Shown piece by piece: positions 2,687 to 15,150 of a stretch of DNA of 15,385 bases. Each line of letters opens with the position of its first letter. The first letter of the stretch is position 1. The stretch comes from a virus: the IMG/VR virus record IMGVR_UViG_3300035152_000011; one strand, given 5' to 3'. Both the position numbers and the translations under genes were made by a program. Below the pieces are notes generated by a model that was not told the origin of the DNA, did not search any database, and saw only the letters and a list, made by a program, of their open reading frames with translations.

Positions 2687-3600
2687 TCCTCAGTCTCGTG
2701 AAGAATGCGGTTGACGGCGCGACGGACCGCGACCGACACAACCTCATCGGGCTCCTCGTAGGTAACGCACATCCCGGGCTCCTGATAGACGACCACGCCG
2801 TCGGTGTCGTAGATATCACCGTCGTAGAAGATGTCGCCCGGGAACGAACGCAGGAACCGCTCACCGCCCGGGATTTGGAGGTAGATGTGCAGCGCGAGCA
2901 TCTCCTCCGCGGCCGGGATGTCCCAGTCGTGGGTGCAGATCGACCGCGAGTCGTCCACGTCGTAGAGCACCGAACGCCGCAGTGCCAACTCGTCGTTCGC
3001 GTGCCGGCTAGTGATGAGATACCGGTGGCCCGTCGTCTGGCCCAGACTGAGGAAGCGGTTGTAGCACCGGAAGTCTTCGAGCTGGCCCGCGTCGAGGAAC
3101 GCGGTCAGGACACGTCGGGCCTGAATCTCAGCACTATCGAAGTCCGGGAACGGGCATCCACGCGTCGGCGCGGCCACGCTGGTCGCGGCCTTCGGCTTCT
3201 TCGCCGGGATGATCTTGTCCGGCGTCACAGCTTCCCGATATGGGCCGCCGTTGGCCTCATCCTTGGTCCACGCGTCCTCGAAGTCCGCAGTGCGGATCTC
3301 CTCGATGCTGCCGTCAGCGAACTTGACTGCGGAAACGACCTTACGCTCCGGTTTCAGGAAGCGTGCAATGACGCCGGCAACCTTGTCGATGGGCGCTCCC
3401 ACTTTCGTCGTGCCCGTCCAGTCCAGGTTCTCCTTCGCAGCAAGCCAGCCCTTCTTCGTGGCCGTCTTGCGCAGCCGATCCAACGCCGCCGTTTCCTGGG
3501 CGCTCAGATTCTCCGCGGTCACCTTGCAGCTCTCCGGGCCGGTCGGCACTACCTTGATGTCCCCGTAGAAGCTCGGGATGTACCAGATTGGGATCTGCAT
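2683..3600 (-). CDS. hypothetical protein, 305 aa
   Basis: ATG at 3600 preceded by AAAGGAGGAG with 4-nt spacer, a very strong SD. In-frame TAA just upstream. High GC3 throughout. No motif recognised. Confidence 0.75.
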   Translation of the reverse strand: MQIPIWYIPSFYGDIKVVPTGPESCKVTAENLSAQETAALDRLRKTATKKGWLAAKENLDWTGTTKVGAPIDKVAGVIARFLKPERKVVSAVKFADGSIEEIRTADFEDAWTKDEANGGPYREAVTPDKIIPAKKPKAATSVAAPTRGCPFPDFDSAEIQARRVLTAFLDAGQLEDFRCYNRFLSLGQTTGHRYLITSRHANDELALRRSVLYDVDDSRSICTHDWDIPAAEEMLALHIYLQIPGGERFLRSFPGDIFYDGDIYDTDGVVVYQEPGMCVTYEEPDEVVSVAVRRAVNRILHETEE

Positions 3601-6592: not shown

Positions 6593-6669
6593 CGTTGTTC
6601 TCCAAGGAAACCAGGGCATGTACCGCATGCTCAGGTTCTCACGCCAGTGTACGGGCACGACGAGTTGAA
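6593..6669 (-). promoter_or_regulatory. 77-nt intergenic gap between ARH stop and HTH gene start; candidate terminator/promoter boundary
   Basis: One of only three non-coding gaps. Contains the short inverted repeat GCATG-n5-CATGC (about 6617..6631) and the RBS for the HTH gene. I could not assign a clean -35/-10. Confidence 0.3.
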
Positions 6670-7602
6670 TCACCGCGGGCCCTCCATGAGTGCTACGTCG
6701 ATCTTGTGCAGCGTCTCGAATTCGCGCAGGCCGGTCTGGTAGCGCTCGGGGATACCTTCCAGCCCGAACCGGGCGCCGAGGATCGCGCCTGTGATCGCGC
6801 CGCGAGTATCGGTGTCCCCACCGCCCCGGATGGCCGCCACGACGCCTTGCTCGAAGTCAGCTGCCCAGGCTGCACAGAAGAGCGCCGTGGCCACGGTCTG
6901 GCTGACGTTCCCGAAGCGGCCGATCTTGCGGATGACCTCGGGCGGCGGCGTAAGACCTTGCATCAGGTAGTAGACCTGCTCGACCAGCTCGAAGACGCGC
7001 GTGCCCACGTAGGTCTCGCCGTACTGGGGCGCCAGGGCTTCCAGAACGGCCTCCAGCAGCCCGTAGCCGCGGACGCCTTCCAGGCTCCGCTTGACCGCCC
7101 AGGCCACTGCGAGTGAGCCTGCGGCCGCCTCGGGGCCCTGGTGCGTGATCGCTGCGTCCTCGACCGACCGTACGACGAGCAGGTCTGGGCTATCGCGGTA
7201 CCAAACGCCCAGAGGCGCGACCCGCATCGCGGTTCCATTGCCGACCGTGAGCGGGTCCTCGAACACGACCCCGGACTGGTTTGGCGGAGTACCAGCGGCC
7301 AGCGCAGCCATCGCTTTCCTGGTCGTCCCGCCCATACCGTGCGGGGTGTCCTGTGCCCAGGCCAGGTAGCGCTGAGCTGCGTCCTCGACCACGTAGCCCT
7401 CATGAGCGATCAGCGACTCAGCCAGAGCCATCGCCATCTCGGTGTCGTCGGTCCAGTGTCCGGCCGGCAGCTTGTGGTGCGTACCCGGCCGGTAGTTACC
7501 TGCCCACGTCGGTAGGTCTTTGTGAACCGCGTCGCCGCGTCGCTCGAAGGGCATTCCGAGCGCGTCCCCGACCGCGAGGCCGACCATGACTGCCGAGGTC
7601 AT
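6670..7602 (-). CDS. ADP-ribosylglycohydrolase (ARH/DraG family), 310 aa
   Basis: Track ORF 6670..7686 trimmed to ATG 7602 (MTSAVMVGLAVGDALGMPFE...) with AAAGGAG 6 nt upstream and an ATGA overlap with the upstream gene. N-terminal GxxxGDALGxPxE motif plus C-terminal GGDTDTRGAITGAILGARFG motif are the two hallmark metal-site segments of the ADP-ribosylglycohydrolase fold (PF03747). Confidence 0.9.
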   Translation of the reverse strand: MTSAVMVGLAVGDALGMPFERRGDAVHKDLPTWAGNYRPGTHHKLPAGHWTDDTEMAMALAESLIAHEGYVVEDAAQRYLAWAQDTPHGMGGTTRKAMAALAAGTPPNQSGVVFEDPLTVGNGTAMRVAPLGVWYRDSPDLLVVRSVEDAAITHQGPEAAAGSLAVAWAVKRSLEGVRGYGLLEAVLEALAPQYGETYVGTRVFELVEQVYYLMQGLTPPPEVIRKIGRFGNVSQTVATALFCAAWAADFEQGVVAAIRGGGDTDTRGAITGAILGARFGLEGIPERYQTGLREFETLHKIDVALMEGPR

Positions 7603-8605: not shown

Positions 8606-9033
8606 CAGTTGTCCTCCTTGTCCTCGGCTATCACGGTCAACGCTGCATCACTCAACGTCCGGCCGAACTGCGCATACAGCTCTCGGACATTGTCCTGGCA
8701 GTGCGCGAAGTCGCCGTGGGGATCGTCGCCGAAGTGCTCGGCCCACGTCTTGACCATCGACCAGTCGCCCTCGATCACTTCCATAACTGCGCTCTCAGCG
8801 AGCGCCGTCGCGAAGTTGGTCGCGCGCTTGATGGCGTCGAGCTGGTGCATCAGCTCAACAACGAAGTGGAGTCGCCGACGGCGCTCGTCGAGCGTCTGCT
8901 GCCCGAACGAGCGCCGAAAGCGCTCCGCGAAGCCGAGGACGAGAAACTCCTGGACCGTCAGCCCGCTGCCGAAGAAGTTGCGTGTTCCCTTAGCGAACCA
9001 CTCGTGGAATTTCTCTTCTCTGTCTTTGCTCAT
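8605..9033 (-). CDS. hypothetical protein, 142 aa
   Basis: ATG 9033 with GAGGAA 5 nt upstream. TGATG overlap with HAD start. Real-looking (MSKDREEKFHEWFAKGTRNFFGSG...). Confidence 0.7.
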   Translation of the reverse strand: MSKDREEKFHEWFAKGTRNFFGSGLTVQEFLVLGFAERFRRSFGQQTLDERRRRLHFVVELMHQLDAIKRATNFATALAESAVMEVIEGDWSMVKTWAEHFGDDPHGDFAHCQDNVRELYAQFGRTLSDAALTVIAEDKEDN

Positions 9034-9035
9034 CT

Positions 9036-9065
9036 GGTTCCTCTTGCTCCGGTGTCCCGGGAACC
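9036..9065 (-). promoter_or_regulatory. small hairpin (GGTTCC-n18-GGAACC, with internal TCCCGGGA palindrome) whose 3' arm overlaps the SD of the 8605..9033 gene
   Basis: Seen directly in the 38-nt spacer between the trx stop and the next start. Could modulate translation or act as a processing site. Weak. Confidence 0.25.
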
Positions 9066-9071
9066 GCCTGC

Positions 9072-9404
9072 TTACGCTTCGGGGAGAAACTTCTTCAGCT
9101 CCTCTTCGATCTCTTTCTTCGGCAACGCGCCGACGAGCTGTGCGACGACTTCCTCACCCTGGAAGATGAGCAGCGTCGGTACGGCCTGGATGCCGTAGCG
9201 GTCGGTGACCTTCGAGGCTTCGTCCACGTTGACCTTGCCGACGCTGAGCTTCCCGTCGTATTGCTTCGCGAGCTGGGCGACGATGGGCCCGATGACTTTG
9301 CAGGGCCCACACCACTCCGCCGTGAAGTCCACGAGCGTGACCTTCGATGCGGTCAAGAAGGCGTCGAAGGTGTCGTCGGTCAGGTCGGTTACTTGCTTGC
9401 TCAT
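9072..9404 (-). CDS. trxA: thioredoxin, 110 aa
   Basis: Track ORF trimmed to ATG 9404 (MSKQVTDLTDDTFDAFL...) with GAGGAA upstream. Active-site WCGPC in the DFTAEWCGPCK context. Full thioredoxin-fold length. First gene downstream of the AT-rich control region. Confidence 0.9.
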   Translation of the reverse strand: MSKQVTDLTDDTFDAFLTASKVTLVDFTAEWCGPCKVIGPIVAQLAKQYDGKLSVGKVNVDEASKVTDRYGIQAVPTLLIFQGEEVVAQLVGALPKKEIEEELKKFLPEA

Positions 9405-9446
9405 GATTTCCTCACGAAAAAAAGTTGGTGGCCGCGCGGTCACGCT

Positions 9447-9490
9447 CTAGCTGCGGGAATTCGGCCGTTCTGTTTTCGAGATGCAGCTAG
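9447..9490. repeat. inverted repeat CTAGCTGC (9447-9454) / GCAGCTAG (9483-9490), 28-nt spacer containing GAATTC and a T-run
   Basis: Seen directly; 8-bp perfect arms. Confidence 0.45.
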
Positions 9491-9501
9491 TGCGATGCGA
9501 T
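9491..9501. repeat. direct repeat copy 1, TGCGATGCGAT (tandem GCGAT)
   Basis: Identical 11-mer recurs at 9570..9580, 79 bp away. Both copies are flanked by CTAG-containing sequence. Confidence 0.5.
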
Positions 9502-9506
9502 TGGCA

Positions 9507-9518
9507 CTTGTATACAAG
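9507..9518. promoter_or_regulatory. perfect 12-bp palindrome CTTGTATACAAG; operator candidate
   Basis: Its reverse complement equals itself. Lies in the divergent control region. Also contains TATACA, a possible -10 for the leftward trx unit. Confidence 0.4.
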
Positions 9519-9569
9519 CACCAAGAACTTTTTTCAGCGACACAGATCGACTTCTCCTTCGAGAATCCC

Positions 9570-9580
9570 TGCGATGCGAT
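9570..9580. repeat. direct repeat copy 2, TGCGATGCGAT
   Basis: See copy 1. Confidence 0.5.
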
Positions 9581-9621
9581 CACTAGATCGGACGTGAGCG
9601 ACGAGTTGCGAAGATCACGTT

Positions 9622-9630
9622 TGGTAGAAT
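9622..9630 (+). promoter_or_regulatory. extended -10 element TGgTAGAAT for the rightward gene
   Basis: TGnTANNNT-type extended -10 sits 52 nt upstream of the 9683 ATG. Only a weak -35 (TTGCGA at 13-nt spacing). Extended -10 promoters are common in actinobacteria. Confidence 0.4.
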
Positions 9631-9682
9631 AGGACATGAAGTCGAACAGTGACGGCCCCGAGGGGCGCAACGGAGATCGAGG

Positions 9683-9982
9683 ATGGCAAAGCGCAAACTG
9701 AATGGTGTCCCCGTGAAGCGCGGGCAGACGTACCGCGTGCGGCGGTCGGGGAAGGCTCCGATCTACGTTCGCGTCGCCCGCGTCACGAACGGGCAGCAGC
9801 CCAAAGCGTTCCTGTATCGAGTGACCCGCAGCGGCCGGCGCGTCGGTCCGCGGCGCATTGTTGCCAGCACCAAGCTGGAGAACAACGAGCTGAAGAAGAC
9901 CTACGCGGTCAACACCATCGCGCACTGGCTCACCTGGCGCGACGACGCCTGGCGCATGCCTGAGAGCTGGGAGCTGGTATAG
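9683..9982 (+). CDS. highly basic 99-aa protein with internal duplication; function unknown (nucleic-acid binding suspected)
   Basis: ATG 9683 preceded by GGAGATCGAGG. GC3 about 86%. Sequence: MAKRKLNGVPVKRGQTYRVRRSGKAPIYVRVARVTNGQQPKAFLYRVTRSGRRVGPRRIVAS... Two YRVxRSGxx(V/I) repeat units. Only plus-strand gene in the window. Confidence 0.75.
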   Translation: MAKRKLNGVPVKRGQTYRVRRSGKAPIYVRVARVTNGQQPKAFLYRVTRSGRRVGPRRIVASTKLENNELKKTYAVNTIAHWLTWRDDAWRMPESWELV

Positions 9983-9984
9983 CG

Positions 9985-10446
9985 TCACGGCTTCCTCCAG
10001 GTAGGCGGAGGCGGCAGCTCGGCCTGGATGCGATCCAGAAACGCAAACAGCTCGGCGTTCGGCACGTCCACCACAGACAGGTCGGCCCCTGCGACCTCTC
10101 CGGTATCGACGTAGCGCCACCAACCTCGTTTCCCATCCGGGTAGTGCGGGTTAGCGGCTTCAGCGTCGTACTTTACCAGTCGGTCGGTGTTCTTGTCGGA
10201 CGTGCCGAGGCTCTCGACGACCTCGATGTCGTCGGGGACGTCGATCTCCATATCGACTGCCCCTGCCACTGTGCCGAATGGTGGACCTTGCTCCCAGTGA
10301 TACTCCGTGAATAGGAAGCGCTGGCTGAACTTCACGCGGATTCCGATAAAGCCATCCTTGCCGTCGAAGACACCGACACGCAGGTTGCGACACCGCAGTC
10401 GGTAGACGCGACCCTTGACGCATTCCTTGAGTGGTGTCAGTTCCAT
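9985..10446 (-). CDS. hypothetical protein, 153 aa
   Basis: Track ORF 9985..10725 trimmed to ATG 10446 (MELTPLKECVKGRVYRLRCRNLRVGVFDG...LPPPPTWRKP), which overlaps (TGATG) the upstream stop. The upstream 93 codons of the track ORF look out-of-frame. Confidence 0.65.
   Translation of the reverse strand: MELTPLKECVKGRVYRLRCRNLRVGVFDGKDGFIGIRVKFSQRFLFTEYHWEQGPPFGTVAGAVDMEIDVPDDIEVVESLGTSDKNTDRLVKYDAEAANPHYPDGKRGWWRYVDTGEVAGADLSVVDVPNAELFAFLDRIQAELPPPPTWRKP
9990..10015. terminator. candidate bidirectional hairpin (GCTTCCTCC-n8-GGAGGCGGC) just past the convergent gene ends
   Basis: 9-bp stem with one mismatch and one G.U pair. No U-tract. Lies inside the C-terminal codons of the minus-strand gene. 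Weak. Confidence 0.25.
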
Positions 10447-10643
10447 CACTGCTGCTTCTTCCAGTACGGGTCTAACGGGTTCAGCGACGCACGAGCAAAG
10501 TCGTCCTGCTCCGCTTTCAGCTTCTTGTACCGCTCGGGGTCCTTGTTCAGCGCTTCCCAGCAGAGCTTCATTTCCTCTTCGGTCAGGTCCCCCCTGGCCT
10601 TGCCCCGGTACATCAGCCGCGCGATGTGATCCCAGTTGATCAT
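10446..10643 (-). CDS. hypothetical small protein, 65 aa
   Basis: ATG 10643 in an ATGA overlap with the upstream stop. Real-looking charged sequence (MINWDHIARLMYRGKARGDLTEEEMKLCWEALNKDPERYKKLKAEQ...). Confidence 0.65.
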   Translation of the reverse strand: MINWDHIARLMYRGKARGDLTEEEMKLCWEALNKDPERYKKLKAEQDDFARASLNPLDPYWKKQQ

Positions 10644-12047: not shown

Positions 12048-13025
12048 CTAGTACCGTGATTTGGGCCGTTGCGCGGCAATCGCAATCGCCATCGCGTAGG
12101 CCGCGTCCATGAGCTTGTCGAGCGGTTCGAGCAAGAAGTCGCTGCCAGTCGCTGCACGGTCGAGCCACAGCTTACGGAGCGCGACCTCCATATCCGGCTG
12201 GGTGACGTTTCCGCCCTTGGGTATCTGATAATCAGCGCGCCGCAGGAGCGGCCCCAGCTCGTCCAGCCTACCCCAGTTGCAGAGGTCTGTGGGGACGTGG
12301 CTCGCGTCGGTGAGCTGCATGCCGGTGAAGTCGCAGCGGTTGTGCCCCTCGTGAGAAATGCCTTGAAGGCTTGCCCCGGACAGATCGGCATTGGCCAAGG
12401 TCGTACCCCGCAGGACGGCCTTATCCAAAGACGCTCCGCGTAGCGACGCACCAGTGAAATTGGCGTCATCGAGCTTCGCGCCTCGAAGGTCAGCGCCGTC
12501 GAGGCACGCTCCAGAGAAGTCAGCGTCGTTCAACGCGGCCCCGCGCAGGTCGGCACCTTCGAGTGAAGTGGACGCGAACCGCGGCTTGCTGTGAAACACA
12601 GCCTTGCGGAGATCGGCTTTGTCGAACACAGCGCCGAGCGCATTGCAGTTACTGAACACCGCCTCACGCATCTTCGCAGCGCTGAAGTCGGTGTCCGGGA
12701 CGTTCGCGCCTGTCAGATCCACGCCCGGCATACTCGCACCCACGAAGATCGCGCCATCGGCGTTGGCCCCTTCCAGGACTGCCCTAGCGAAATCTGCCTT
12801 TGACAGATCGCACGCGGTCAGGTTGACGTGCTTCAAGGTGAGTCCTGCGAAGTCGAAGCCAACGTAGTCGCGCCGCTGGAAGTCAGCGCGTTCGAGCGGC
12901 ACGCGGGCGAGCAGCGCCCAGCTCTCGCGGGGCGTCATGTCCTCGAACGTGACTTTGCGGCCGTCGAACAGCATGATCTCTGGATCGCTAGACTCTTCTG
13001 CGGTGTGCTCGGGTTCCTTGGTCAT
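12048..13025 (-). CDS. pentapeptide-repeat protein, 325 aa
   Basis: ATG 13025 in an ATGA overlap with the upstream stop. Residues about 55-225 are tandem A(D/N)LxG-type pentapeptides (...ADLRGAALNDADFSGACLDGADLRGAKLDDANFTGASLRGASLDKAVLRGTTLANADLSGASLQG...), predicting a right-handed quadrilateral beta-helix. Non-repeat N- and C-terminal extensions. Confidence 0.85.
   Translation of the reverse strand: MTKEPEHTAEESSDPEIMLFDGRKVTFEDMTPRESWALLARVPLERADFQRRDYVGFDFAGLTLKHVNLTACDLSKADFARAVLEGANADGAIFVGASMPGVDLTGANVPDTDFSAAKMREAVFSNCNALGAVFDKADLRKAVFHSKPRFASTSLEGADLRGAALNDADFSGACLDGADLRGAKLDDANFTGASLRGASLDKAVLRGTTLANADLSGASLQGISHEGHNRCDFTGMQLTDASHVPTDLCNWGRLDELGPLLRRADYQIPKGGNVTQPDMEVALRKLWLDRAATGSDFLLEPLDKLMDAAYAMAIAIAAQRPKSRY
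12350..12860. repeat. tandem 15-nt periodic DNA repeats = coding repeats of the pentapeptide-repeat gene
   Basis: Periodicity is visible even in the antisense track ORFs (APRRSAPS recurring). Fully explained by the PRP coding sequence. Approximate bounds. Confidence 0.6.
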
Positions 13026-14414: not shown

Positions 14415-14538
14415 CGGATCTCCTCTGGAGCACCCACGCGTAGTGGGGAGAGCAGGCCTCACACCGCTTCTGCGGATAGACGCCAAAGTAGATGAAGGGC
14501 TCGCCGCAGACGATGCACGTTGCCTCAGAAGCGACCAT
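14314..14538 (-). CDS. small zinc-ribbon protein, 74 aa (CIVCG...CEAC)
   Basis: ATG 14538, one nt after the upstream TAG. GC3 about 80% over the first 41 codons. The last 33 codons overlap the start of the next gene, and there GC3 drops to about 42%. Confidence 0.6.
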   Translation of the reverse strand: MVASEATCIVCGEPFIYFGVYPQKRCEACSPHYAWVLQRRSDGKTRVVKTIRAPIPIGRGFRRYEERREVSGWS

Positions 14539-14539
14539 G

Positions 14540-14650
14540 CTAGAACCCCTTGGGCCATACGTTGAAAGCTGCGTGTTCGCTCTGGACAGCCTCCAGGAGC
14601 ACGGTCATTTCCTCGTCGCTGGCGCCGGTACGATCCCTGGCAGCGTACAC
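14540..14650 (-). CDS. hypothetical small protein; 5' boundary unresolved (coding signal extends to 14706 without a canonical start)
   Basis: Track ORF 14540..14845 overlaps the upstream CxxCxxCC gene for 139 nt. In the overlap, its frame has GC3 about 52%, against about 75% for the other gene, so it is not coding there. Downstream of 14707 its frame is clearly coding (GC3 about 78%). The only in-frame candidates are GTG 14650 (no SD) or ATG 14608 (SD abutting). Confidence 0.35.
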   Translation of the reverse strand: MYAARDRTGASDEEMTVLLEAVQSEHAAFNVWPKGF

Positions 14651-14706
14651 TGCGAGTGCCAGCGCGTCGCGCGAGAGCGTGTTGTGGACGAGCTGCCGCG
14701 CGAATT

Positions 14707-15150
14707 CTAGGATGACTTCGAGGCGGATCGGAGCACCGTCTCTCTGTCGTCGTTGAATAGCGGACTGCAACACCCCTGGCCGATTGCCAGTTCGTGCTCG
14801 AACCGAGAGCGCTGGTCGCCGCTCGATTGCGTGATGCGTTCGCACAAATACCTCCCCTTCTGATCTGGGTCCTCGGCCAGAAACCTACAGGGTACACCCT
14901 CGCCGAGGTGACAGGGCGCCTGTTTACAGCAGAAGCCGCAGCGGACGCACGGGCGTCGCGGCTGCCTCTTGTGGACGTAGCGGAGCTGGTCGCCATCATG
15001 AACGACGTAGCCCTTGCGGATGAAATGATCGAGCAGCTTGTCGTCGGCCGCTTTACAGCCTGCGAAGAGCTGCTCGCGTGTGAACGGTGCGCCGTCAAGC
15101 GCTTCGAGCCACCAGGCGATCTCCTCGTGGATGTGCAGCACGTACGGCAT
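14707..15150 (-). CDS. CxxCxxCC zinc/iron-chelating domain protein (YkgJ/UPF0153-like), 147 aa
   Basis: ATG 15150 (second Met of the track ORF) with GAGGGGA upstream and a TGATG overlap with the upstream stop. CVRCGFCC plus downstream Cys residues fits the CxxCGxCC signature of PF03692. Confidence 0.7.
   Translation of the reverse strand: MPYVLHIHEEIAWWLEALDGAPFTREQLFAGCKAADDKLLDHFIRKGYVVHDGDQLRYVHKRQPRRPCVRCGFCCKQAPCHLGEGVPCRFLAEDPDQKGRYLCERITQSSGDQRSRFEHELAIGQGCCSPLFNDDRETVLRSASKSS

What the first reader, a model, noticed from the sequence alone, without database searches (positions are those of the whole stretch)
9405..9682. Divergent control region with a perfect 12-bp palindrome, an 8-bp inverted repeat pair and a duplicated 11-mer, ahead of the only rightward gene
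Elements seen directly: CTTGTATACAAG (9507-9518, perfect palindrome, typical dimeric-repressor operator geometry); CTAGCTGC / GCAGCTAG (9447-9454 / 9483-9490); TGCGATGCGAT twice (9491-9501 and 9570-9580, 79 bp apart, about 7.5 helical turns); an extended -10 TGgTAGAAT (9622-9630). Such a density of symmetric and repeated sites in the single large intergenic region suggests a genetic switch. The leftward trx cassette and the rightward basic-protein gene would be controlled from here, possibly by the 61-aa HTH protein encoded 3 kb downstream or by the basic protein itself.
Basis: seen in the sequence. Interest (0 to 1): 0.6.

Follow-up and report, generated by a model that had tools for sequence, protein, structure and literature searches.

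The report
Portable phage gene cassette control region
The repeat-rich spacer is a real, conserved control region, but it looks like the promoter, leader and upstream hairpin module of a small self-contained phage gene cassette rather than a lambda-style repressor/operator switch.

Summary
All four sequence elements are at the stated coordinates. Comparison with three diverged relatives of this uncultured phage, and with three more distant lineages carrying the same small-protein family, sorts them.

- The extended -10 (TTTGGTAGAAT) is a real promoter signal. It recurs in front of every family member except L011 and varies only at its least critical base.
- An ATG 6-7 nt after the -10 (leaderless geometry) opens a short upstream ORF that ends at or near the main start codon.
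- The 8-bp inverted repeat is a hairpin stem with compensatory changes.
- The 12-bp palindrome is the tip of a second hairpin. Its right arm lies in a 27-nt invariant block, while its left arm drifts, mostly through changes that keep G-U pairs on the trx-sense strand. A distant lineage has a different hairpin there. That pattern fits structure, not a dimeric operator.
- The duplicated 11-mer is not conserved.

The two hairpins lie in a ~118-nt module bracketed by the only A7/T6 runs in 15 kb, at a fixed 85-86 nt from the promoter. The module's function is unresolved; it may be a terminator or insulator. The 99-aa protein is a basic beta-barrel, not an HTH. Sister phages lack the whole unit.

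The parts
9402..9413 (-). trx start codon (CAT 9402-9404 on +) and its Shine-Dalgarno (GAGG; CCTC 9410-9413 on +)
   Evidence: sequence; Pfam Thioredoxin 1.1e-27; gene call 9072-9404
9417..9534 (.). Structured upstream module (~118 nt): A7-GTTGG ... hairpins ... ACCAAGAAC-T6. Both ends are conserved across lineages and the length is conserved (116-118 nt).
   Evidence: These are the only A6+/T6+ runs in the 15.4-kb window. The ends are inverted repeats (I4). They are conserved in L013 and L129. The folds give a closing helix plus 2-3 hairpins.
9443..9494 (.). The loop holds the invariant GGAATTCGGCC.
   Evidence: 3 of 10 pairs have changes on both sides and 92-95% of cells are paired. GAATTC also sits in a hairpin loop in L013.
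9430..9467 (-). Alternative GC stem on the trx-sense strand: GGCCG 9430-9434 with CGGCC 9462-9466. It ends 4-7 nt before the U7 run and crosses hairpin 1.
   Evidence: Predicted in all four window-clade lineages although the left segment differs in sequence. L013 has an 8-bp hairpin flush against its U-rich run.
9491..9501 (+). 11-mer copy 1 (TGCGATGCGAT). Lineage-specific.
   Evidence: Not conserved in L001, L002 or L003
9501..9524 (.). Hairpin 2, a 24-nt dyad whose core is the 12-bp palindrome 9507-9518
   Evidence: The right arm is invariant and the left arm is variable. L001 has a perfect 18-bp version. It is more stable on the minus strand in 4 of 4 lineages. There are five G-U wobbles on minus against mismatches on plus.
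9520..9535 (+). T-block ACCAAGAAC-TTTTTT-C, the most conserved non-coding element across lineages
   Evidence: Invariant in the clade. ACCAAGGAATTTTTTC in L013 and CCACCAAGCGTTTTTTTC in L129. In L129 it is the 3' arm and U-tract of a canonical-looking terminator.
9535..9620 (.). 86-nt spacer with conserved length and unconserved sequence. It holds 11-mer copy 2 (9570-9580), four GATC sites, the invariant CGAGTT (9602-9607) and the inverted repeat ACGTGA/TCACGT (9591-9596 / 9615-9620).
   Evidence: The gap is 85-86 nt in all six versions. GATC enrichment P=0.003. The exact 10-mer CAACTCGTCG (minus strand) is shared with the gap at 6658-6667.
9620..9630 (+). Extended -10 promoter TTTGGTAGAAT (TG 9622-9623, hexamer 9625-9630), with no -35
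   Evidence: TA[G/C/A/T]AAT with TGn is conserved in the four clade lineages and in L012, L013 and L129. It is the only TGnTAnAAT in the window.
9636..9701 (+). ATG 6 nt after the -10 (presumed 5'-terminal AUG) opening a 21-codon upstream ORF that overlaps the main start
   Evidence: An ATG lies at +6/+7 after the -10 in window, L001-3, L012 and L129. In L012 it is the start of the family protein itself. The uORF stop falls from -3 to +18 of the main start in all versions.
9655..9666 (+). Invariant GC leader hairpin GCCC-CGAG-GGGC
   Evidence: 4 of 4 pairs are invariant. L013 has a much larger GC hairpin in the same place.
9672..9982 (+). Shine-Dalgarno GGAG (9672-9675) and the 99-aa ORF (9683-9982): a basic all-beta protein of an uncharacterised family

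Best explanation
The 278-bp spacer is the 5' control region of a self-contained, portable gene cassette (moron-like) encoding a small basic beta-barrel protein. The cassette lies in reverse orientation inside a leftward phage gene array.

Shown by comparison: the cassette is present or absent as a unit between sister phages. The same architecture accompanies the protein family in lineages with different neighbours and orientations. In order it is:
1. an A-rich end;
2. about 90 nt of hairpins;
3. ACCAAG-N2-3-T6-7-C;
4. a spacer of fixed length (85-86 nt);
5. an extended -10 promoter, TTTGrTAnAATrGG;
6. an ATG 6-7 nt after the -10;
7. a GC hairpin;
8. a Shine-Dalgarno sequence;
9. the ORF.

Inferred mechanism:
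- Host sigma70 RNA polymerase starts at or next to A9636 without needing a -35.
- The transcript carries a 5'-terminal AUG that can load ribosomes directly.
- Translation of the short upstream ORF runs through the leader hairpin and stops at or just past the main start codon, coupling or tuning translation of the 99-aa protein.
The module most likely acts at the RNA level as a terminator-like insulator. It would stop read-in towards the promoter on the + strand (hairpin 2 plus T6) and attenuate or structure the trx-sense transcript on the - strand (GC stem plus U7 just before the trx ribosome-binding site).
- The 11-mer duplication is incidental.
For: - Unit presence and absence. L007-L010 (trx 67% identical) run 235-aa gene, 62 bp, trx on one strand, with no family ORF. 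They retain only the left ~55 bp of the module, up to GGAATTCGGC.
- Same cassette, other contexts. L013/L014 have a lone reversed gene next to a Lar-like gene. L129 is co-directional. L012 is co-directional.
- Promoter. TGnTAnAAT is conserved with only hexamer position 3 varying, and it is unique in each locus.
- ATG at +6/+7 after the -10. In L012 that ATG starts the protein itself.
- uORF stop overlaps or adjoins the main start: ATGA in L002, TGATG in L003, GTGA in L129, 2 nt before in L013, +18 in window and L001.
- Known precedent for 5'-terminal uAUGs that bind 70S ribosomes and affect the downstream cistron (PMC4965119).
- Hairpin 1 covaries.
- Hairpin 2 keeps pairing with G-U wobbles on the minus strand and is replaced by a different hairpin in L013.
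- The invariant blocks far exceed the 33% neutral invariance.
- The module ends are the only A7/T6 runs in 15 kb.
- In L129 the T-block forms a flush hairpin plus U7 after a co-directional gene.
- In L013 the gene is followed by a clean hairpin plus T5.
Against: - No transcript ends are mapped, so the start site, and hence the leaderless status, is inferred from geometry only.
- In L013 the in-frame ATG lies 2 nt after the -10, too close to be 5'-terminal, so the uORF logic is not uniform.
- As a + strand terminator the window's hairpin 2 is weak (-6.2 kcal/mol) and ends 4 nt before the T-run (4-7 nt in five of six lineages). That is non-canonical.
- Nothing obvious needs terminating rightward in the inverted context.
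- A full terminator on the trx-sense strand would silence trx.
- Strand evidence is mixed: hairpin 2 favours minus and hairpin 1 favours plus in 3 of 4 lineages.
- The conserved ACCAAG sequence and the fixed 85-86 nt spacing are not explained by a simple terminator.
- Only four distinct clade sequences are available.
Confidence: 0.5

Rival explanations
1. Genetic switch. The 12-bp palindrome is an operator for a dimeric repressor, either the 61-aa HTH protein or the 99-aa protein, controlling divergent trx and 99-aa promoters.
For: The dyad is conserved within the clade, and L001 has a perfect 18-bp version. It lies between divergent genes. A sigma-r4-like HTH protein is encoded 3 kb away. The 99-aa protein is very basic.
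Against: The half-sites are unequally constrained and the drift is wobble-compatible on one strand. There is a single site with no second operator. It is centred about 123 nt upstream of the presumed rightward start, so it does not overlap the promoter. L013 and L129 keep the cassette but not the palindrome. No leftward sigma70-type promoter is detectable. The 99-aa protein is a beta-barrel without an HTH.
Confidence: 0.12
2. The module is a structured RNA element of the leftward (trx-sense) transcript: a 5'-UTR or intercistronic domain. It would have a closing A-run:U-run helix, hairpin 2, hairpin 1, and a GGCCG/CGGCC pseudoknot or alternative stem. Its role would be to control processing, stability or translation of trx mRNA after the transcript has crossed the cassette in antisense.
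For: Hairpin 2 wobbles and energies favour the minus strand in 4 of 4 lineages. The GC stem before U7 and the Shine-Dalgarno sequence is conserved with different sequences. The window minus-strand fold has z = -2.4 and L013 has z = -3.0. The left part persists next to trx in L009 after loss of the cassette.
Against: The module also accompanies the family gene in L129, where there is no leftward gene to serve. In L013 it sits next to an unrelated leftward gene. No Rfam family matches. Hairpin 1 is more stable on the plus strand in 3 of 4 lineages.
Confidence: 0.2
3. DNA-architectural upstream site. ACCAA-N4-TTT(TTT), about 110 bp upstream of the start, binds a bending protein (IHF-like) or the cassette's own protein. 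It would act on the promoter through helical phasing, which would explain the fixed 85-86 bp spacer.
For: The spacer length is conserved at 85-86 nt in six versions although the sequences cannot be aligned between lineages. The core sequence is conserved across lineages. It resembles the IHF core WATCAA-N4-TTR; this is from my own knowledge, not a tested match.
Against: The match to the IHF consensus is imperfect (C for T, T for R). The host is unknown. L012 and L011 carry the family gene without the block. No binding data exist.
Confidence: 0.13
4. Replication origin or another DNA-level site, suggested by the AT-runs, inverted repeats and GATC cluster in the only sizeable non-coding region.
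For: A/T runs flank inverted repeats. GATC is enriched in the spacer in 4 of 6 lineages.
Against: There are no iterons, since the 11-mer is not conserved. The unit is absent from sister phages. It moves with a small gene into different contexts. GATC is common genome-wide at 7.2 per kb.
Confidence: 0.03

Closest known systems
Phage morons (independently transcribed extra genes flanked by their own promoter and terminator; concept of Hendrix/Juhala, own knowledge)
   Same: The gene is present in some syntenic phages and absent from others. It has its own sigma70-type promoter. It has its own intrinsic terminator in L013. It is often opposite in orientation to its neighbours.
   Different: The genome is a ~143-kb phage with no evidence of lysogeny. 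No terminator follows the gene in the window, where it abuts a convergent gene at 9985. The cassette also carries a conserved upstream structured module at fixed spacing, which is not part of the moron definition.
5'-terminal uAUG / leaderless upstream ORFs on SD-leadered mRNAs (E. coli; PMC4965119), and the leaderless lambda cI mRNA
   Same: An ATG lies 6-7 nt after the -10, followed by a normal leader with a Shine-Dalgarno sequence and the main ORF. In L012 the same ATG starts the protein itself.
   Different: Here the arrangement is conserved across phage lineages, with the uORF stop placed at the main start, which suggests coupling. Neither the start site nor uORF translation has been demonstrated.
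Lambda-type OR/OL operator switch and Cluster A mycobacteriophage stoperators
   Same: A dyad-symmetric sequence lies between divergent genes.
   Different: There is a single site, with asymmetric half-site conservation, no adjacent HTH repressor, no overlap with the promoter, and no dispersed copies.
Bidirectional intrinsic terminators (A-tract, hairpin, T-tract)
   Same: An A7 ... T6 bracket surrounds hairpins, and these are the only homopolymer runs in 15 kb. The L129 version is canonical on the + strand.
   Different: The 'hairpin' is a ~90-nt branched domain. The stems end 4-7 nt before the U-runs in most lineages. The element sits between divergent genes rather than convergent ones in the window.
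Extended -10 (TGn) sigma70 promoters
   Same: TGnTAnAAT with no recognisable -35, and position 3 of the hexamer free to vary.
   Different: Nothing unusual, apart from the conserved G-rich discriminator and the start codon at +1.

Membership tests
Repressor/operator genetic switch (lambda-like) | Both half-sites of the dyad equally constrained in relatives | tested here: not met
   The right arm is invariant and the left arm varies in 4 of 4 lineages; 8 of 40 cells are unpaired on the + strand
Repressor/operator genetic switch (lambda-like) | Multiple related operators, or an operator overlapping a promoter | tested here: not met
   Only one site with 3 or fewer mismatches, at the chance level. 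The dyad centre is about 112 nt upstream of the -10.
Repressor/operator genetic switch (lambda-like) | Adjacent gene encodes an HTH or RHH DNA-binding repressor | tested here: not met
Repressor/operator genetic switch (lambda-like) | Specific protein binding to the dyad | not testable with these tools
   Needs EMSA or footprinting
Stoperator-like dispersed operator | Many copies of the motif across the genome | tested here: not met
   No further copies of the 12-mer, 11-mer or 8-mer above chance in 15.4 kb. The rest of the ~143-kb genome could not be retrieved.
Moron-like autonomous cassette | Present or absent between otherwise syntenic relatives | tested here: met
   L007-L010 lack the gene and the right ~220 bp of the spacer
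Moron-like autonomous cassette | Own promoter | tested here: met
   A conserved extended -10 lies upstream of family members in four lineages. This is sequence-level evidence only.
Moron-like autonomous cassette | Own downstream terminator | tested here: inconclusive
   A clean hairpin plus T5 follows the gene in L013. None follows it in the window, where a convergent ORF starts 2 nt after the stop.
Leaderless / 5'-uAUG mRNA | AUG at the mapped 5' end of the transcript | not testable with these tools
   The geometry fits, with the ATG 6-7 nt after the -10 in 5 of 6 distinct versions. No start-site data exist.
Leaderless / 5'-uAUG mRNA | Downstream SD-led cistron on the same transcript | tested here: met
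   GGAG lies 7 nt before ATG 9683, and the equivalent is present in L013 and L129
Canonical intrinsic terminator | Stable GC-rich stem followed within about 0-3 nt by a U-tract | tested here: inconclusive
   Met in L129 on the + strand (0 nt) and in L013 on the - strand (0 nt). The window has 4 nt on + with a -6.2 kcal/mol stem, and 6 nt on -.
Known RNA family (Rfam) or tRNA-like gene | Match to a curated covariance model, or an ARAGORN call | tested here: not met
   No hit at E up to 10 in window 9000-10300. None at gathering score in L001, L003, L013 or L129. No tRNA or tmRNA.

The most novel reading that the evidence does not exclude
The A-run/T-run-bracketed ~118-nt hairpin module, held exactly 85-86 nt upstream of a -35-less promoter with a 5'-terminal uAUG, is an undescribed cis-regulatory element. 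It would co-evolve with, and perhaps be read by, a new family of small basic beta-barrel proteins: a portable, non-HTH autoregulated expression unit used by large phages in their early, anti-defence gene regions.
Probability: 0.2. Interest if true: 0.65.

Novelty: new variant of a known kind. Interest (0 to 1): 0.5.

Why it matters
The analysis shows that a dense cluster of symmetric motifs, read as a 'switch', is better explained as the conserved regulatory front end of a mobile single-gene expression cassette. That cassette carries the only host-type promoter signal in a ~35-gene stretch of a large uncultured phage.

It gives a directly testable case of a conserved 5'-terminal uAUG and upstream ORF coupled to a main ORF in phages. 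It also defines an uncharacterised small beta-barrel protein family that sits among host-takeover and anti-defence genes: Acb2/Acb5-like, Lar-like, ADP-ribosylglycohydrolase and pentapeptide-repeat genes.

Finally, it flags an upstream structured module with fixed spacing whose mechanism is not covered by standard terminator or operator models.

Tried and rejected
- Nucleotide searches of deposited phages, near and distant, and tblastn of the 99-aa protein: no match.
- Viral-contig search with the protein, and exact scans of viral, metagenome and genome collections with the invariant block: no match.
- Composite pattern CCAAGnAnT6-N75-95-TTGGTAnAAT: 2, 77 and 35 hits. All are in loci without a family ORF by HMM search, and nearly all are AT-rich. 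I discarded them as chance.
- The search for related loci with the family alignment failed because the alignment was too diverse.
- Sigma70 two-hexamer and simple terminator scans found nothing in window 9000-10300.
- Rfam and tRNA searches were negative.
- GATC cluster as a special signal: GATC is common genome-wide. The spacer enrichment is real in 4 of 6 lineages but absent in L129, so I left it as an observation.
- A minus-strand small ORF over the invariant block (MKKVLGACI..., with an ATG only in L003), read by eye: rejected. The start codon is not conserved, the frame is not shared with L013, and all three codon positions are invariant.
- Sigma54 reading of TGGCAC in the window: rejected because it is not conserved.
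- A leftward promoter: none could be identified. The shared 10-mer CAACTCGTCG is logged as a lead only.

Full report
**Observation.**
All four elements are at the stated coordinates. The palindrome extends to a 24-nt imperfect dyad, TTGGcaCTTGTA|TACAAGcaCCAA (9501-9524). The 8-bp inverted repeat extends to 12 nt with one mismatch. In 5000 dinucleotide shuffles of the spacer:

| Element | Shuffles reaching it |
|---|---|
| perfect palindrome of 12 or more | 7.5% |
| direct repeat of 11 or more | 1% |
| 8-bp inverted repeat within 60 nt | 18% |
| all three together | 0 of 5000 |

None of the motifs recurs elsewhere in the window above chance.

**Context.**
The window has no nucleotide relative among deposited phages. 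Its genes are phage-like: phrog_6452, phrog_3740, thioredoxin, NT5C, a pentapeptide-repeat protein and an ADP-ribosylglycohydrolase. The most similar cultured phages at the protein level infect alphaproteobacteria, at about 33% identity. The parent contig is about 143 kb. Almost all genes run leftward. The 99-aa gene (9683-9982) runs rightward and abuts a convergent gene.

**Relatives.**
The 99-aa protein has three close homologues at 76-87% identity. Their contigs share the synteny trx(-) | ~275 bp | 99-aa(+). L004 equals the window and L005 equals L003, so there are four distinct versions. Only 33% of four-fold degenerate sites in the two flanking genes are invariant across the four. That makes the invariant non-coding runs strong footprints.

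**What the alignment says about each element.**
- *11-mer.* Neither copy is conserved, so it is lineage-specific or chance.
- *8-bp inverted repeat.* CTAGCTGC/GCAGCTAG becomes CTAGCCGC/GCGGCTAG in L002, and L003 has ACTGCAC/GTGCAGT. Three of 10 pairs change on both sides and 92-95% of cells pair. It is a hairpin stem, with the invariant GGAATTCGGCC in its loop.
- *Palindrome.* The right arm lies in a 27-nt block (TATACAAGCACCAAGAAnTTTTTTCAG) that is invariant except at one position. The left arm varies. L001 has a perfect 18-bp version, and L003 has two inner mismatches.
- *Palindrome, strand comparison.* Five of the eight deviating cells are G-U wobbles on the trx-sense (minus) strand and A-C mismatches on the plus strand. 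Pairing is 92.5% on minus against 80% on plus. The hairpin is more stable on the minus strand in 4 of 4 lineages. A dimeric operator would constrain both half-sites alike.
- *Extended -10.* TTTG[G/A]TA[G/C/A/T]AAT varies at the hexamer's third position. That is the signature of a real -10.

**The unit is dispensable and portable.**
More distant relatives (L007-L010, trx 67% identical) have pentapeptide gene, 222-aa gene, 235-aa gene, 62 bp, then trx, all on one strand. They have no family ORF. Their 62-bp spacer is homologous to the left ~55 bp of the window spacer and ends exactly after GGAATTCGGC. So roughly 9467-9984 is present or absent as a block.

The 99-aa protein belongs to an uncharacterised family with about 20 representatives. 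It has no Pfam, PHROG, NCBIfam or PDB sequence match. The contexts of distant members are:

| Locus | Orientation and neighbours | Upstream features |
|---|---|---|
| L013/L014 (38% identity) | lone reversed gene beside a Lar-like gene | GAAAATAATTTGG, GAATTC in a hairpin loop, a different second hairpin, ACCAAGGAATTTTTTC, 85 nt, TTGGTATAAT, a strong GC leader hairpin and AGGAG; a hairpin plus T5 after the stop |
| L129 | co-directional | CCACCAAGCGTTTTTTTC, 85 nt, TTTGATATAATGGGGTT-ATG; a 9-codon uORF whose TGA overlaps the GTG start |
| L012 | co-directional, near Acb2/Acb5-like and SSB genes | TTGGTAAAATGGGTC-ATG, where the ATG is the protein's own start; no T-block |
| L011 | 675-bp contig, upstream neighbour not called | none of these features in the 206 nt available |

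**Architecture.**
- The T-block-to-promoter gap is 86, 86, 86, 85, 85 and 85 nt.
- The module is 116-118 nt long.
- The ATG sits 6 or 7 nt after the -10 in five of six distinct versions.
- The uORF stop lies between 3 nt before and 18 nt after the main start.
- The two module ends are the only A/T runs of 6 nt or more in the 15.4-kb window, and the promoter is the only TGnTAnAAT. The same holds in L001, L013 and L129.

**The protein.**

**The module's function is unresolved.**
- Every lineage folds into a closing A-run:U-run helix around 2-3 hairpins, on either strand.
- On the + strand, L129 looks like a canonical terminator after a co-directional gene. In the other lineages the hairpin ends 4-7 nt before the T-run, and the window's stem is weak.
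- On the trx-sense strand, a GC stem (GGCCG/CGGCC) that crosses hairpin 1 precedes U7 and the trx Shine-Dalgarno sequence in all four clade members. L013 has a flush hairpin plus a U-rich run.
- The conserved ACCAAG core and the fixed spacing suggest an added DNA-level or phasing constraint.
- There is no Rfam or tRNA match.

**Verdict.**
The 'genetic switch' reading is only partly supported. The best reading is a moron-like cassette with three parts: an extended -10 promoter, a probable 5'-terminal uAUG with a coupled uORF (precedent in PMC4965119), and an upstream hairpin module of terminator- or insulator-like character. The palindrome and the 8-bp repeat are stems in that module, and the 11-mer is incidental.

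Noticed in passing
window 9599-9608 (-) and 6658-6667 (-); also 2986-2995 (+): The exact 10-mer CAACTCGTCG, with an extended match CAACTCGTCGnnCnCGTnC, lies on the trx-sense strand in the spacer, where it overlaps the invariant CGAGTT. It also lies 66 nt upstream of the 61-aa sigma-r4-like HTH gene. It could be a leftward phage promoter or processing motif. Relaxed matches are not enriched.
   Followed up: partly
window 9535-9620; L013 4765-4849: GATC is enriched in the 86-nt spacer: 4 sites in the window (P=0.003) and 5 in L013 (P=0.0003). L001 and L003 are also enriched, but L129 has none. GATC is already frequent genome-wide at about 7 per kb.
   Followed up: partly
L007 350-421; L009 2586-2647: Sister phages that lack the 99-aa gene keep a 'scar' of the module's left end (A8 run, GATCATGC, CTAGCCGCAGGAATTCGGC) fused to the stop codon of the 235-aa gene. 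There the GAAUUCC segment again sits in a small hairpin loop (UAGCCG/CGGCUA). This points to deletion of the cassette rather than insertion in the window clade.
   Followed up: partly
L012 3493-4598; L013 4450-4638; window 6670-7602 and 12048-13025: Family members sit among host-takeover or anti-defence-type genes: Acb2/Tad1-like and Acb5-like domains plus SSB in L012, a Lar-like restriction-alleviation gene in L013/L014, and an ADP-ribosylglycohydrolase and a pentapeptide-repeat protein in the window. This hints that the 99-aa beta-barrel is an early or host-interaction protein.
   Followed up: no
window 14492-14710 (+): A second possible rightward ORF (72 aa, no family hit) was called in the parent JGI contig. 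The equivalent region in L001 is called on the other strand instead, so 'only rightward gene' is not certain.
   Followed up: partly
L012 4898-4911: A perfect 14-bp palindrome, CTTTGAGCTCAAAG, lies 74 nt upstream of that lineage's TTGGTAAAAT promoter block. Its half-sites loosely resemble the window's CTTG...CAAG. L012 has no T-block.
   Followed up: no
window 9591-9596 / 9615-9620: The inverted repeat ACGTGA-N18-TCACGT ends right against the promoter's TTTGG. L003 has the compensated version ACGCGA/TCGCGT, L001 has a G-U-compatible version, and L002 lacks it.
   Followed up: partly
window 9985-10643: The window and L001 carry two extra leftward genes (153 aa, phrog_3740; and 65 aa) between the 99-aa gene and the 234/243-aa gene. 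These are missing in L002 and L003, so this neighbourhood holds a second indel.
   Followed up: no
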